From IMG/VR virus record IMGVR_UViG_2563366976_000008, positions 1-11,953 of that record: DNA of 11,953 nucleotides; one strand, 5' to 3'. Below are positions 9,001-11,953 of the stretch, piece by piece. The first letter of the stretch is position 1; every line of letters starts with the position of its first letter. Source of the DNA: a virus (taxonomy: Duplodnaviria; Heunggongvirae; Uroviricota; Caudoviricetes). The position numbers are program-made.

Positions 9001-11953
9001 GTTATCACTTCTGCTCTCATTGCTGGTTTGCGCTTGCATTGCAAGACCACTCGTGAGGGGGTTGGCCTGTGTAGCTTGTCGGAGCTGATCGCCTCCTGAC
9101 TTTGCAGATTTGCACGACGAGCTCTACGGCGAGAAGCTGCGGTTCCTTTAAATTCTGTTTTTCTGGACATAGATTCCTCCCGAATAAACTTTGGCGATGC
9201 AATCTCGAAGCCCCTCCTGAGACGGTTGCTTCGGCATTGCATCCCACAGCTTATGTGGTTGGGTGATCTGGCTTTTCAGCCACGTAGTCGAGTGTTCGAC
9301 GTTGTTTAAAGAGCCTGCCAATCTTTTCCGTTTGGCTACCAGCGTCCTGCTGATGGAAATAATAGTCACATATTGTGATTTAATGGTCAATCACAAAATG
9401 TGTAAAATAAGGGTGTGACACGTTATGTGTATGATTTTTTTGTGTAAATAGTTTTCCCCGCGATGGGTTTGCTTACTTAAGGCGGGGGAAACAGCAGGAT
9501 GGTGTGCTGAAAAGTTCGAAAAACGAGCGAAGTAGGTGGTGACGAGATGGCGGGATATGGGAGTTGTATTAAGAATTATAGTAATTTAATCAGAGGCTTG
9601 GGCTGGCTGGCAGGTGCTGTCCTGATAGTTATGTGCAGGCAACAAAAAACCCGGGGCGGTTCAGGTTGTCTCATTTTTTAGTTTGCTTTGGATTCGGTTT
9701 GTCTCTTCTTCCAATTATAAACACGCTAGTTAAAGCAACTAACTCAGCACCAAGAAGCCCGGTAGCCCAGCCATAAGCCTCGTGCTGAATCATCTTGTAA
9801 GCAATTCCTGCGAAAACAAAGACAGAAGTCATCGCAAAGATCTGTCCGAGTCGATCTCGCCAAATTGCTCCCCTCTGTCCTGCTTTGTAATACTCGTGTC
9901 TGTGTTTTTGCTCAGCCTTAGCCATGTCCATTATTTCGCGAGCGAATCCTGGAGATATTCTTTCGTACTTAGCTAATTCGTCAGCGTCTGGGAGTGGCCC
10001 TGATCTAGTGTGAGTCACCTGCATCATGATGCCAGCTAGATCTGGCCTGTCCATGAGGCGCTCAAGAACTTGAGGGTTCTTTGCGACCTCATTTATAAGC
10101 AGTTCGGTTTTACCGTCTTGAACTCGCCCTAACGGAGTTGGTTGGTTAACAAGATTTCTCGGTGCGGCGGTTTGAAGCTTTCTTTGGGATTTTTTTCTGC
10201 TCATTATCAGTTACAGCGTCTCTAACGTAACTACCTACCTTAACCCAATCTGAGTTGATAAGGTCGATGTCTGTAGCATTTGAATGATACTCGCTGTAGC
10301 TACCTGCTGGGCAAAGGTCAAGGATAGAGCCCATAGCGCTGAAAAAGTGCTTTGCAGATTTTTTCATGTGGGGTGTCCTATATGTTGTTTACTCTAATTT
10401 GAGTAATTGAAGTTTACGCAAAACCTAGCTTTCAGCAAGCAATACAGCACAAAAAATCATGTAAATTTGCGTCTATTTTTATCTACCGGAAAAATGCTCA
10501 ACAACTTTAGAGAAAAAATAGCAATACCAAATCAAACCAATTGCTGCTTCGCCTCTACCCAAACGTCTCTTCAGGCCACTGAGCCTTAACTACCTTGCCT
10601 ATGATGCGGCATGTGTGATCGCAGTCCAGGGTTCTGTATGCCGGATTCAATGGAACCAAGTAACTAACCCCTGCATCCTTCTCATACTTCTTGAACGTTG
10701 CCTCTGAATCACCATTTGCAGAAGCCACGCAGAAATCCCCAGACTCTACCGGCTCGGCCGGATCAACGAGTATCAGCATACCCTCAGGAAAACTCGGCCT
10801 TACGCCCTGTGGCGCAGTCATAGAATGGCCTTTCACCTCAAGCCAGAAAGCTTTTTCGCTGGCTTTTGTGGTCGTTGGGACCCATGCCTTTGCATCGCTT
10901 GCTGTGTAGCTTCCAACCTCCGAAAACGGCCCGGCCTGCACTGAAGAAAATAACGGGTACTCATATTGGCGAAATACAGCGTCTGAATCCTCGCCAAACA
11001 TTATTTTTGCCGGAGATACGCCGAGTGCCGCCCCAAGAACCAGCGCGTCATCCGCGCTAACCTTTCTTGTTCCTAACTCGTAGTTCCCCAGGCGTGAAGG
11101 CGCAGCCCAGCCGCAAAGCTTGGCCAATTGAGCCTGGCTAAGTCCTTTAGCTTCTCTAAGGGACTTGATCCTTTCCCCGATAATTTCATGCATCGTTTTC
11201 ATCCTTTAAATGTAACACGCAACGTGATTGAACTCTGTACACGAATTGAGGTTGACTGTTAATCACAAATTGTGTGTAATGGGTGTGTGATTAATACTAG
11301 GGAGACCGCAATGAACAAAATTGCCCAGCAGCGAAAAAAAATCGGAGTTTCGCAAGCTGTACTGGCTTCGGCAATTGGTTGGGGGCAATCCCGCATCGCC
11401 AACTATGAGCTGAATATCCGTACTCCTAGACTTAACGATTGCCGAAAGATCGTAGAAGGCCTCAGGAAGTTAGGGTGCCAATGTTCTTTGGATGATGTTT
11501 TCCCTCCATCCAGTAACAAAGCCGCCTAAGCAGTACCCGCTCTTTGTAACAACGGACATTCGTCCTACGTCGCTGAAAAGCGAGTCCCAAGATATCTGAC
11601 CAACTAAGGCCATATGCGTTTCCACGCATACCTTTCAACTAACTATTCACTATTGGAAATCTTAAGAAATGGAAAGAACAAGTTACAGCAAACTATCACA
11701 GCGTGACGTTGATCGCGCTGAAACAGATTTACTTATCAACCTGTCAACGCTTACTCAGCGCGGTCTGGCAAAGATGATTTGAACCGCCCCGGGAATCCTG
11801 GAGACTAAACTTCCTGAGAAAGAGGTAAACAGGATGACTAAAAATACTCGTTTTTCCCCTGAAGTCCGTCAACGGGCAGTCCGTATGGTTCTGGAAAGTC
11901 AGGGCGAATATGACTCACAATGGGCGACAATTTGTTCCATTGCTCCAAAGATT

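What the first reader, a model, noticed from the sequence alone, without database searches (positions are those of the whole stretch)
10389..10438. Candidate autonomous promoter and perfect palindrome upstream of the cassette
The 190-bp gap between cI and the cassette is AT-rich and holds a plausible minus-strand promoter (TTGCTG, 16 nt, TAAACT). The palindrome TTACTC-TAATTT-GAGTAA lies around the predicted start, where an operator would sit. This suggests the cassette is separately regulated rather than only read through from pRM.
Basis: seen in the sequence. Interest (0 to 1): 0.4.

Follow-up and report, generated by a model that had tools for sequence, protein, structure and literature searches.

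The report
Conserved promoter of a prophage cassette
The flagged motifs form the conserved control region of a small mobile two-gene cassette that sits beside the prophage repressor gene; it is very probably the cassette's own promoter, an ordinary arrangement for phage accessory genes, and the phage repressor does not recognise the palindrome.

Summary
TTGCTG is at 10438-10433, then 16 nt, TAAACT at 10416-10411, and TTACTC-AAATTA-GAGTAA at 10406-10389.

In this sequence alone neither motif beats chance. An equally good promoter match occurs in 49% of shuffles of the gap. A 6-6-6 inverted repeat occurs in 57%. The palindrome is 17/18, not perfect.

The support is comparative. The gap travels with the ORF73 + DUF2335 cassette as one mobile module, found next to at least 8 unrelated cI types and in places with no cI at all. 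Across 12 cassettes of 4 lineages these blocks are invariant:
- GTGCTGT
- CTTG(C/A)TG
- TTTTGCGTA(A/C)ACT

The stretch between the last two blocks varies in sequence but never in length. The core is more conserved (0.88) than codon third positions (0.66).

An autonomous sigma70-type promoter starting near 10404 is therefore likely, in addition to read-through from pRM. The palindrome is not a CI/Cro operator. Every lineage keeps an inverted repeat at the start site, but its sequence and register differ, with no formal covariation, so its binder or role is unresolved.

Unexpectedly, most relatives also carry a conserved FliA (sigma28)-type promoter about 70 nt upstream. It is degenerate in this window.

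The parts
10433..10438 (-). -35-like hexamer TTGCTG of the candidate cassette promoter
   Evidence: Read. It lies inside the block CTTG(C/A)TG, which is invariant in 12 cassettes of 4 lineages. The only variant, TTGATG in L028/L040, is closer to consensus.
10411..10416 (-). -10-like hexamer TAAACT
   Evidence: Read. It lies inside the invariant block TTTTGCGTA(A/C)ACT. The only variable position is hexamer position 3. The spacer to the -35 is 16 nt in every homologue.
10404..10404 (-). Predicted transcription start (A, 7 nt after the -10 hexamer); an inference, not mapped
   Evidence: Position rule for sigma70 promoters (established knowledge) applied. It gives a 37-nt leader before the ATG at 10367.
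10389..10406 (.). Inverted repeat TTACTC-AAATTA-GAGTAA (17/18 palindrome) spanning -2 to +16 of the predicted start
   Evidence: The left arm is nearly invariant. The right arm reads G(A/T)G(T/C)(A/C)A within the window-type lineage. 72.9% of cells pair across 12 sequences, with no change on both sides of any pair.
10444..10454 (-). Invariant upstream block TTTTGTGCTGT (about -50 to -40); function unassigned
   Evidence: GTGCTGT is invariant in all 12 aligned cassettes. No factor could be assigned.
10417..10423 (-). Invariant TTTTGCG directly upstream of the -10 hexamer; function unassigned
   Evidence: Invariant. It is not in register for an extended -10 TGn (reading of the sequence).
10376..10379 (-). 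Shine-Dalgarno AGGA for ORF73
   Evidence: Read. AGGA/GAGG is kept in all homologues.
10146..10367 (-). ORF73, first gene of the cassette: a 73-aa protein with the motif F..AMGSILDL.P..SY...DW..VG
   Evidence: Matches phrog_26284 at E=1.5e-39. 23 clusters, those with a source name being Escherichia, Citrobacter, Enterobacter and Kluyvera. 78 remote representatives. 26 invariant residues. No gene is listed at its position in the two RefSeq regions retrieved.
9671..10204 (-). DUF2335 protein of 177 aa, second gene of the cassette; its start overlaps ORF73 by 59 nt
   Evidence: Pfam PF10097 at E=1.4e-17. phrog_3996, category moron, described as membrane protein. Alignment A3. Two C-terminal hydrophobic stretches are read from the sequence.
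9648..9667 (-). Intrinsic-terminator-like hairpin plus T run that ends the cassette, in the position of the lambda tIMM analogue
   Evidence: The homologous position in VT1-Sakai is annotated as the terminator for the pRM transcript. Similarity to mEpX1 and VT1-Sakai resumes at about 9660.
10483..10509 (-). FliA/sigma28-like promoter motif TAAAGTTG-N11-TCCGGTAG, degenerate here (12/16 to TAAAGTTT-N11-GCCGATAA)
   Evidence: PWM built from 20 ChIP-defined FliA promoters (PMC4183435). The window scores 10.6 and relatives score 14.7-19.6, inside the range of known promoters. The null 99.9th percentile is 15.0. There are 15 distinct variants. The spacer is always 11 nt. Block identity is 0.78 and 0.86 against 0.48 for the spacer.
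10555..11202 (-). cI repressor (HTH + S24 peptidase), upstream neighbour of the cassette; its 3' end marks the module boundary
   Evidence: Pfam hits. 95.6% identical to VT1-Sakai cI down to the stop codon and no further.

Best explanation
The segment 10389-10438 is the core of a promoter that belongs to a mobile two-gene cassette, not to the phage immunity circuit. The cassette is ORF73 plus a DUF2335 membrane protein, and it occupies the slot between cI and pL/N where lambda carries rexAB.

The model has these steps:
1. RNA polymerase with sigma70 uses TTGCTG-16 nt-TAAACT and starts near A10404. This step is inferred.
2. That gives the cassette expression independent of pRM, added to read-through from cI, because no terminator is detectable in the gap.
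3. The inverted repeat covers -2 to +16 of the predicted start and is a cis-regulatory element of the cassette itself.
4. The repeat most likely acts either as a binding site for a non-CI factor that evolves with the cassette, or as a small hairpin at or near the 5' end of the transcript. The data do not decide between these two.
5. In most relatives a FliA (sigma28)-type promoter about 70 nt upstream adds a third input. In this window that motif has lost a key base and is probably weak or dead.

What is shown: the module boundaries, the conservation pattern, the absence of any CI-operator resemblance, and intact cassettes with no cI upstream.

What is inferred: promoter activity, the start site, and any binding to the repeat.
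For: Module ownership:
- Similarity to the VT1-Sakai and mEpX1 phages stops at the cI stop codon and resumes at about 9660.
- The block 9633-10560, gap included, recurs at about 99% identity in 21 of 5,426 E. coli genomes.
- It sits next to a different 235-aa cI in L001/L002, and next to at least 8 cI N-terminal domain types that are 55% identical or less.

Selection on the non-coding core:
- Over 10 non-redundant cassettes the 54-column core has a mean pairwise identity of 0.88. ORF73 codon positions 1+2 have 0.86 and position 3 has 0.66.
- Over 12 cassettes of 4 lineages the invariant columns are GTGCTGT, CTTG.TG and TTTTGCGTA.ACT. The 9 nt between the last two blocks vary in sequence but not in length.
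- The only hexamer changes are at -35 position 4 (C to A, towards consensus) and -10 position 3, which are among the less conserved consensus positions (the consensus frequencies are from my own knowledge).

Need for its own promoter:
- L013/L014 carry intact ORF73 (73 aa) and DUF2335 (181 aa) behind a 404-bp gap whose upstream genes point the other way. There is no cI, and the core is retained.
- L016/L017 lie after dinI.

Other points:
- The candidate is the best-scoring sigma70-like site in the gap on either strand.
- The core occurs only in front of ORF73 in E. coli genomes, phage records, viral contigs and species genomes.
- No terminator is found in the gap, no RNA structure beyond chance (z = +0.36), and no Rfam family.

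The repeat at the start site recurs family-wide:
- L028, L030 and L041 share TCAAC-N5-GTTGA. The arms are invariant and 4 of 5 loop positions vary.
- The non-homologous upstream regions of L045 and L032 carry a 6-bp-arm repeat directly at or after their best -10, and L050 a 5-bp-arm one at its weak best site.
Against: - In this one sequence the promoter match (7/12) is at chance level: 49% of shuffles match as well. The tool's scan does not report it.
- No transcription-start data exist for this element.
- Conservation extends beyond what a sigma70 promoter needs. GTGCTGT at about -46 to -40 and TTTTGCG at -19 to -13 are invariant, so something other than, or in addition to, a plain promoter is under selection.
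- The right arm of the palindrome decays without compensation. L009 keeps 5 of 9 pairs. No pair changes on both sides, and the percentage paired is no better than shuffled.
- The repeat register differs between lineages, which does not fit a fixed dimer operator.
- ORF73 matches no known DNA-binding domain, and its structure model is poor (pLDDT 63).
Confidence: 0.6

Rival explanations
1. There is no autonomous sigma70 promoter. The cassette is expressed only as the distal part of the cI transcript from pRM, or from the upstream FliA-type promoter in relatives. The conserved core is then a leader element that acts on the RNA (processing, stability or translation) or binds a protein for another purpose.
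For: - No terminator separates cI from ORF73.
- The hexamer match is weak and at chance level.
- The invariant blocks GTGCTGT and TTTTGCG are not explained by a promoter.
- BstA, another gene next to cI, was described as presumably sharing the repressor's promoter (PMC8585504).
Against: - L013/L014 keep an intact cassette and core with no co-directional upstream gene.
- L009, L015 and L041 lack the FliA-type motif but keep the core.
- The pattern of two blocks at a fixed 16-nt spacing with a variable spacer, with substitutions only at weakly constrained hexamer positions, is what a promoter predicts.
- No RNA fold beyond chance and no Rfam hit.
Confidence: 0.2
2. The palindrome acts as RNA, not as an operator. 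It forms a small stem-loop at the very 5' end of the cassette transcript, or inside the longer pRM or sigma28 leader, and protects the mRNA from 5'-end-dependent decay in the way the ompA 5' stem-loop does.
For: - With the start taken as the 7th nt after the -10, the minimum-energy fold of 9 of the 11 homologous-core leaders tested is a hairpin beginning 0-2 nt from the 5' end, at -2.4 to -4.5 kcal/mol.
- The part of the repeat kept across window-type sublineages begins at or just after the predicted +1 (ACTC.../...GAGT, or CTCA/TGAG in L015). The outer pairs that would lie upstream of the start are among those lost.
- Lineages use different registers, which suits a stem better than a fixed protein site.
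- L028 and L040 differ by two substitutions that rebuild the outer helix in another register (my reading).
Against: - The stems are very weak, 4-5 bp.
- L009 has none.
- There is no formal covariation in either register.
- In L032 and L050 the repeat overlaps the -10, so it would not be fully transcribed from that promoter.
- The perfectly symmetric centre AAATTT in L007 and L013 has no use in a loop.
- The start site is only predicted.
Confidence: 0.3
3. The palindrome is an operator for the phage's own CI or Cro, which would tie the cassette to the lysis-lysogeny switch.
Against: - On a matrix built from the six OR/OL operators, which are identical to those annotated in VT1-Sakai, the palindrome scores -0.2 or -4.3. 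Real operators score 12.8-20.0, and the best site anywhere in the gap scores 1.5.
- The same core accompanies at least 8 unrelated cI DNA-binding domains and also occurs without any cI.
Confidence: 0.02
4. The palindrome has no function of its own. The left arm is conserved because it is the initially transcribed region of the promoter, and the right arm is a chance complement that is slowly decaying.
For: - A 6-6-6 inverted repeat is expected by chance in 57% of shuffled gaps.
- The left arm is invariant while the right arm varies without compensation. The percentage paired equals the shuffled value.
- L009 keeps only 5 of 9 pairs (my count on the alignment).
Against: - An 18-bp palindrome with at most 1 mismatched pair occurs in only 3.9% of shuffles.
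- Sliding the partner by 1-3 columns drops pairing from 72.9% to 25-46%.
- Three further lineages keep invariant arms TCAAC/GTTGA around a variable loop. If the 4 variable positions fell at random among the 15 positions, all 4 would land in the loop with probability 5/1365 (my count).
- Unrelated upstream regions of distant cassettes also place a repeat at the start site.
Confidence: 0.2
5. The conserved non-coding core is a DNA-level recognition or self-immunity element for the cassette's proteins, comparable to the aba element of the BstA system. It would not be only a promoter.
For: - Precedent: aba is a 63-bp DNA-based element spanning 29 bp upstream plus 34 bp of a defence gene adjacent to cI (PMC8585504).
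- The core here is conserved more strongly than the coding sequence, and beyond the needs of a promoter.
Against: - There is no evidence that the cassette is a defence system. PADLOC gives no hit.
- There is no evidence of DNA binding by either protein.
- The conservation pattern is adequately explained by a promoter plus unknown regulators.
Confidence: 0.06

Closest known systems
Lambda rexA-rexB with promoter pLIT, downstream of cI
   Same: - Same slot: between cI and the pL/N region, ending at a terminator just before OL.
- A two-gene accessory cassette expressed in the lysogen, with a membrane protein as the second gene.
- Expression by pRM read-through plus an additional internal promoter (lambda facts are from my own knowledge; the rexAB position is cited in PMC8585504).
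   Different: - No sequence relationship to RexA or RexB.
- The extra promoter here precedes the whole cassette, rather than lying inside the first gene and serving only the second.
- The function of ORF73 + DUF2335 is unknown.
Morons of lambdoid phages (the promoter-gene-terminator units described for HK97 and lambda bor/lom)
   Same: - A self-contained unit with a candidate promoter, genes and a terminator.
- Present in some and absent from other otherwise near-identical phages.
- PHROGs files the DUF2335 family under the moron category.
   Different: - Promoter activity has not been shown.
- The unit also occurs outside phage immunity regions (L013, L016, L032).
BstA-aba locus of Salmonella prophage BTP1
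   Same: An accessory locus directly downstream of the prophage repressor, with a short functional DNA element spanning the 5' end of the gene (PMC8585504).
   Different: - Unrelated proteins.
- aba is a demonstrated DNA-based anti-defence element. Here only conservation is shown.
- bstA was presumed to share the cI promoter.
Autoregulated toxin-antitoxin operons (palindromic operator overlapping -10/+1, small first gene overlapping a second gene)
   Same: - A small first gene that overlaps the second by 59 nt.
- A palindrome at the start site.
- An ORF73-like domain is found fused to a SocA/Panacea antitoxin domain (P0043) and to the start of DUF2335 (P0065).
   Different: - No DNA-binding fold is recognisable in ORF73.
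- Neither toxicity nor neutralisation has been shown.
- The operator geometry is not conserved between lineages.
FliA (sigma28) class-3 flagellar promoters, including flxA
   Same: - Relatives carry TAAAG...-N11-(T/G)CCGATA(A/G) with scores inside the range of ChIP-defined FliA promoters.
- flxA falls from 280 to 2 without fliA in PMC4183435. Its location in the Qin prophage is from my own knowledge.
   Different: - In this window the motif reads TCCGGTAG and scores 10.6, below 18 of the 20 reference promoters.
- FliA dependence is untested anywhere in this family.

Membership tests
sigma70-dependent promoter | -35 and -10 hexamers resembling TTGACA / TATAAT at 16-18 bp spacing | tested here: met
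   TTGCTG-16-TAAACT matches 3/6 + 4/6. The best-conserved consensus positions TTG and TA...T are all present. It is the best site in the gap on both strands and ranks 28th in the window. It falls below the 9/12 threshold of the tool scan.
sigma70-dependent promoter | Match better than chance in the sequence itself | tested here: not met
   49% of 1000 dinucleotide shuffles of the gap contain a match at least as good.
sigma70-dependent promoter | Hexamers and spacing conserved among homologues while the spacer sequence drifts | tested here: met
   CTTG.TG and TTTTGCGTA.ACT are invariant in 12 cassettes, with 9 variable nt between them and a 16-nt spacer throughout. Core identity is 0.88 against 0.66 at codon position 3.
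sigma70-dependent promoter | Mapped primary transcript start and activity of the isolated fragment | not testable with these tools
   No transcriptome or reporter data are available. The literature search found nothing on this cassette.
Moron (autonomous accessory unit in lambdoid phages) | Present or absent between otherwise homologous phage genomes, with sharp boundaries | tested here: met
   VT1-Sakai and mEpX1 match on both sides but carry other DNA between 9660 and 10559. The module recurs next to other cI alleles.
Moron (autonomous accessory unit in lambdoid phages) | Own terminator | tested here: met
   Hairpin plus T run at 9667-9648 on the minus strand, immediately after the DUF2335 stop codon.
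Moron (autonomous accessory unit in lambdoid phages) | Own promoter | tested here: inconclusive
   Predicted and conserved, and implied by the cI-less contexts. Not demonstrated.
CI/Cro operator of this phage | Resemblance to the OR/OL operator consensus | tested here: not met
   Operator matrix score of -0.2 or -4.3, against 12.8-20.0 for the six real operators.
CI/Cro operator of this phage | Site co-varies with the repressor's DNA-binding domain | tested here: not met
   The same core lies next to at least 8 cI N-terminal domain types that are 55% identical or less, and also occurs without cI.
Toxin-antitoxin-type autoregulatory operator | Palindrome overlapping the -10/+1 of the operon promoter | tested here: met
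   The repeat spans -2 to +16 of the predicted start. Analogous repeats occur in the other lineages.
Toxin-antitoxin-type autoregulatory operator | First gene product carries a DNA-binding fold (RHH, HTH, AbrB or similar) | tested here: inconclusive
   No Pfam or NCBIfam hit even at lax thresholds. The AlphaFold model has two helices, mean pLDDT 63 and pTM 0.29, which is too poor for a fold search.
Toxin-antitoxin-type autoregulatory operator | Half-site sequence and spacing conserved among homologues | tested here: not met
   The window type has TCAA-2 bp-TTGA inside ACTCAAATTTGAGT. The L028/L030/L041 type has TCAAC-5 nt-GTTGA. The dyad is shifted by about 2.5 bp.
FliA (sigma28) promoter | TAAAGTTT-N11-GCCGATAA (consensus quoted in PMC2859248) | tested here: inconclusive
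   The window matches 12/16 and scores 10.6. That is below 18 of the 20 reference promoters and just under the 99th percentile of the null (11.2). The A of CCGATA is G here. Thirteen of the 15 distinct variants keep CCGATA, and those scored reach 14.7-19.6. The spacer is always 11 nt.
FliA (sigma28) promoter | Expression dependent on fliA | not testable with these tools
   No expression data.
NarL/NarP 7-2-7 site | TACYYMT-N2-AKRRGTA (heptamer consensus quoted in PMC4886647) | tested here: not met
   The palindrome has 3 mismatches. 21 sites in the window match equally well or better, and no fetched locus has an exact match.
5'-terminal stabilising stem-loop (ompA type) | Stem within a few nt of the 5' end, maintained by compensatory change | tested here: inconclusive
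   A hairpin forms 0-2 nt from the predicted 5' end in 9 of 11 homologous-core leaders, but only at -2.4 to -4.5 kcal/mol. No covariation in either register. The start site is not mapped.

The most novel reading that the evidence does not exclude
The ORF73 + DUF2335 cassette is a self-contained accessory or exclusion module that brings its own multi-input control region. That region would comprise a sigma70 promoter, a self-specific inverted-repeat element at the start site, and in most lineages a functional FliA (sigma28) promoter. Expression of this membrane-protein module in the rex slot would then be coupled to flagellar gene expression, for instance to protect motile lysogens against phages that enter by way of the flagellum. 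The E. coli version in this window would have lost that input through a point change at the key A of CCGATA; the same position is changed to T in other copies of this version.
Probability: 0.15. Interest if true: 0.65.

Novelty: new member of a known kind. Interest (0 to 1): 0.4.

Why it matters
The region between cI and N in lambdoid prophages is a known hotspot for lysogen-expressed accessory and defence genes such as rexAB and bstA. How these genes are wired decides when the lysogen pays for them and when it benefits from them.

This module is uncharacterised. It occurs in 21 of 5,426 complete E. coli genomes and in Citrobacter, Enterobacter and Kluyvera. Showing that it carries its own conserved control region, independent of whichever repressor it sits beside, makes it a clean unit to test.

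The result also corrects the natural assumption that a palindrome in the immunity region is a CI/Cro operator. The conserved FliA-type promoter in relatives is the less expected element. If it is functional, it would link a prophage immunity-region cassette to the motility regulon.

Tried and rejected
- **CI/Cro operator.** Rejected by the operator-matrix score and by the lack of co-variation with cI type.
- **NarL/NarP 7-2-7 site.** I recalled a resemblance (TACTCAA-AT-TTGAGTA). It has 3 mismatches, and 21 equally good sites exist in the window, so I dropped it.
- **Other host-factor motifs recalled from memory and compared by eye only.** LexA, CRP, FNR, Cra, PurR, CpxR, PhoP, OmpR, IHF and UvrY boxes, and sigma54, sigma32 and sigmaE promoters. 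None fitted the invariant positions. These comparisons were not formally scored.
- **Structured RNA or known RNA family.** The 221-nt fold gives z = +0.36, and Rfam has no hit at E up to 1.
- **Terminator between cI and the cassette.** None found.
- **Plus-strand (antisense) promoter in the core.** Its best site scores lower and is not conserved (plus inspection).
- **The core as a promoter cassette reused in front of other genes.** It occurs only before ORF73, in E. coli genomes, phage records, viral contigs and species genomes.
- **Known defence system.** No PADLOC hit for either protein. tblastn of ORF73 against phage records found nothing.
- **Structure of ORF73.** The model was too poor (pLDDT 63) to justify a fold search.
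- **Metagenome scan with DUF2335.** It added no new ORF73-bearing lineage.
- **Formal covariation test of the repeat in two registers.** Negative in both.

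
Full report
**1. Context**

The window is the immunity region of a lambdoid prophage. On the minus strand it reads in this order:
- cI at 10555-11202 (HTH plus S24 peptidase)
- a 187-bp gap
- ORF73 at 10146-10367
- a DUF2335 protein at 9671-10204
- a terminator-like hairpin at 9667-9648
- the OL/pL region
- N at 8898-9242

cro lies on the plus strand at 11272-11529. The six operators annotated in phage VT1-Sakai are present unchanged in the window at 11213, 11237 and 11261 (OR) and at 9364, 9389 and 9416 (OL). The 'cassette' of the finding therefore occupies the slot where lambda carries rexAB.

**2. The observation**

- TTGCTG at 10438-10433
- 16 nt of spacer
- TAAACT at 10416-10411
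- TTACTC / AAATTA / GAGTAA at 10406-10389

The gap is 65% A+T. The arms of the palindrome are perfect. The 18-mer as a whole is 17/18, because its centre is not self-complementary.

Taken alone, none of this beats chance:
- The promoter match is 7/12 and the tool's scan does not list it.
- 49% of shuffled gaps contain an equally good match on my position-weight scan.
- 57% of shuffles contain a 6-bp-arm inverted repeat.
- 3.9% contain an 18-bp palindrome with at most one mismatched pair.

The candidate is still the best sigma70-like site in the gap on either strand. It ranks 28th of about 119,000 candidates in the window, where pR ranks 4th and pL 7th.

**3. The gap belongs to the cassette, not to cI**

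- Similarity to the closest phages (VT1-Sakai, mEpX1) runs through cI at about 95% and stops at its stop codon. It resumes at about 9660, and those phages carry other DNA in between.
- The block 9633-10560, that is the gap plus both genes plus the terminator, recurs at about 99% identity in 21 of 5,426 complete E. coli genomes. In some of these it lies beside a different, 235-aa cI.
- ORF73 homologues form 23 clusters; those carrying a source name come from Escherichia, Citrobacter, Enterobacter and Kluyvera. They led to further loci. The cassette nearly always follows a cI-like S24 repressor.
- Those repressors fall into at least 8 types whose N-terminal DNA-binding domains are 55% identical or less.
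- Intact cassettes also occur with no cI. L013/L014 have divergently oriented upstream genes. L016/L017 lie after dinI. L032 lies between uvrB and a dus gene.

**4. Conservation pattern**

In 10 non-redundant cassettes the 54-column core has a mean pairwise identity of 0.88. That exceeds ORF73 codon positions 1+2 (0.86) and position 3 (0.66).

In an alignment of 12 cassettes from four lineages, with ORF73 identity falling below 50%, the invariant columns are GTGCTGT, CTTG.TG and TTTTGCGTA.ACT. The 9 nt between the last two blocks vary in sequence but never in length. So the two proposed hexamers and their 16-nt spacing are fixed while the spacer drifts.

The only hexamer substitutions are C to A at -35 position 4 (TTGATG, closer to consensus) and A/C at -10 position 3. 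Both are among the less conserved positions of the consensus (the consensus frequencies come from my own knowledge).

This is what a promoter predicts. It is not what recent transfer predicts, because transfer would give uninterrupted identity. The core is found only in front of ORF73.

Together with the cI-less contexts, this makes an autonomous promoter starting near A10404 the best reading. I put it at about 0.6. Read-through from pRM should add to it, since the gap has no terminator, no RNA structure beyond chance (z = +0.36) and no Rfam match.

Two invariant blocks are not explained by a plain promoter and remain unassigned: GTGCTGT at about -46 to -40, and TTTTGCG at -19 to -13.

**5. 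The palindrome**

It is not a CI/Cro operator. On a matrix built from this phage's six operators (consensus AAACACAAATTGTGTTT) it scores -0.2, against 12.8-20.0 for the real sites. It also does not change with the neighbouring cI type. A NarL/NarP 7-2-7 resemblance that I recalled did not survive testing.

Within the window-type lineage:
- The left arm is nearly invariant; only L016 differs, at one base.
- The right arm reads G(A/T)G(T/C)(A/C)A.
- L007 has the perfect 18-mer, and L009 keeps only 5 of 9 pairs.
- Across 12 sequences 72.9% of cells pair, against 25-46% when the partner is slid by 1-3 columns.
- No pair changes on both sides, and shuffling does as well as the real alignment.

Three further lineages (L028/L040, L030/L051, L041) have a different repeat at the same place, TCAAC-N5-GTTGA. 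The arms are invariant and 4 of 5 loop positions vary. The dyad is shifted by about 2.5 bp.

Distant cassettes with unrelated upstream DNA also place a repeat at or just after their best -10:
- L045: ATAACC-GT-GGTTAT
- L032: CACTCC-CTGA-GGAGTG
- L050: TATAC-TAATG-GTATA

What is conserved family-wide is therefore 'an inverted repeat at the start site', not its sequence. That fits a binder that evolves with the cassette, or a small hairpin. As RNA starting at the predicted +1, 9 of 11 homologous-core leaders fold into a hairpin 0-2 nt from the 5' end, but only at -2.4 to -4.5 kcal/mol. It does not fit a fixed host factor.

ORF73 gives no clue. It has no Pfam or NCBIfam match, and its model is a low-confidence two-helix structure. 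I therefore leave operator, RNA hairpin and neutral repeat as open rivals.

**6. A second promoter-like motif in the same gap**

About 70 nt upstream of the core, most relatives carry a two-block motif that matches the FliA/sigma28 consensus TAAAGTTT-N11-GCCGATAA (consensus quoted in PMC2859248).

I built a matrix from 20 ChIP-defined E. coli FliA promoters (PMC4183435). On that matrix:
- Relatives score 14.7-19.6.
- Known promoters, scored leave-one-out, give for example fliC 15.2, aer 16.3 and tar 24.3.
- The null 99.9th percentile for a 250-nt sequence is 15.0.

Among 15 distinct variants the spacer is always 11 nt. Block identity is 0.78 and 0.86, against 0.48 for the spacer.

In this window the motif reads TAAAGTTG-N11-TCCGGTAG (10509-10483). 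The key A of CCGATA is G, it is T in other copies of this same cassette version, and the score is 10.6. It is probably weak or inactive here. L009, L015 and L041 lack the motif but keep the core. A precedent for a FliA-dependent accessory gene is flxA, whose expression falls from 280 to 2 without fliA. Its location in the Qin prophage is from my own knowledge.

**7. The cassette itself**

ORF73 is a real conserved gene:
- It has 26 invariant residues, including AMGSILDLCP and DW..VG.
- It matches phrog_26284.
- No gene is listed at its position in the two RefSeq regions retrieved.
- It belongs to a wider family of 60-80-aa proteins, with 78 representatives at E up to 1e-3.
- In that family one member is fused to a SocA/Panacea antitoxin domain, and another to the beginning of DUF2335.

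ORF73 overlaps DUF2335 by 59 nt. DUF2335 has two C-terminal hydrophobic segments, read from the sequence, and PHROGs files it under morons. PADLOC does not recognise either protein. Function is unknown. The position and architecture suggest an accessory or exclusion module, but nothing here tests that.

**8. Comparison with what is known, and verdict**

The closest analogues are:
- lambda rexAB with its extra promoter pLIT
- the moron concept
- the BstA-aba locus next to cI (PMC8585504)
- autoregulated toxin-antitoxin operons

The finding is a new member of a known kind: an accessory cassette in the cI-N hotspot that carries its own control region. The autonomous-promoter reading is supported by comparative evidence. 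The CI/Cro-operator reading is rejected. The role of the palindrome is unresolved.

Interest is moderate (0.4). It is raised mainly by the conserved FliA-type promoter and by the unexplained invariant blocks.

Noticed in passing
window 10483-10509 (minus strand); L003, L005, L007, L008, L011, L013, L016, L028, L030 at about 115-118 nt before the ORF73 ATG: A FliA/sigma28-type promoter motif (TAAAG...-N11-(T/G)CCGATA(A/G)) is conserved with a fixed 11-nt spacer of variable sequence. Relatives score inside the range of known FliA promoters. The window's copy reads TCCGGTAG, and other copies of the same cassette version read TCCGTTAG, so two different changes hit the same key A.
   Followed up: partly
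window 10146-10367 (minus strand): ORF73 is a conserved 73-aa gene (phrog_26284; 26 invariant residues), but no gene is listed at its position in the two RefSeq regions retrieved. It overlaps the DUF2335 start by 59 nt. Remote relatives include a fusion to a SocA/Panacea antitoxin domain (P0043) and a fusion to the beginning of DUF2335 (P0065).
   Followed up: partly
window 10444-10450 and 10417-10423 (minus strand): GTGCTGT (about -46 to -40) and TTTTGCG (-19 to -13) are invariant in all 12 aligned cassettes, yet a sigma70 promoter does not require them. No binding factor could be assigned.
   Followed up: partly
window about 10555-10585; L004, L012, L015, L016 upstream of the core: The last codons of cI (…[12 protein letters not shown]) persist as DNA remnants upstream of the cassette, even where a different cI or no cI is present. 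L012 appears to carry two such remnants. This marks the cI 3' end as the recombination junction of the module.
   Followed up: no
L013/L014 (1531-3456), L016/L017, L032: The cassette also occurs outside immunity regions. It is found flanked by genes with UmuD- and UmuC-like (IMS domain) products, after dinI, and between uvrB and a dus gene. Both ORFs are intact in each case.
   Followed up: partly
L008, L016, L009 (upstream of the core); window 10460-10465: In some relatives the conserved TTTACA forms a second sigma70-like promoter with a TAnCTT hexamer 16-17 nt downstream, and this scores as well as or better than the core promoter. In the window the corresponding hexamer is TTGCTT, which lacks the A at position 2.
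   Followed up: no
window 2262-2279: The only other 18-bp palindrome with at most one mismatched pair in the window is TTCCCCATATTTGGGGAA.
   Followed up: no
window 8337-8876 (plus strand) and 7361-8190 (minus strand): A SieB superinfection-exclusion homologue (Pfam PF14163) lies next to N on the opposite strand. Two further ORFs of 149 and 108 aa have no family match. The 149-aa ORF has hydrophobic stretches.
   Followed up: no
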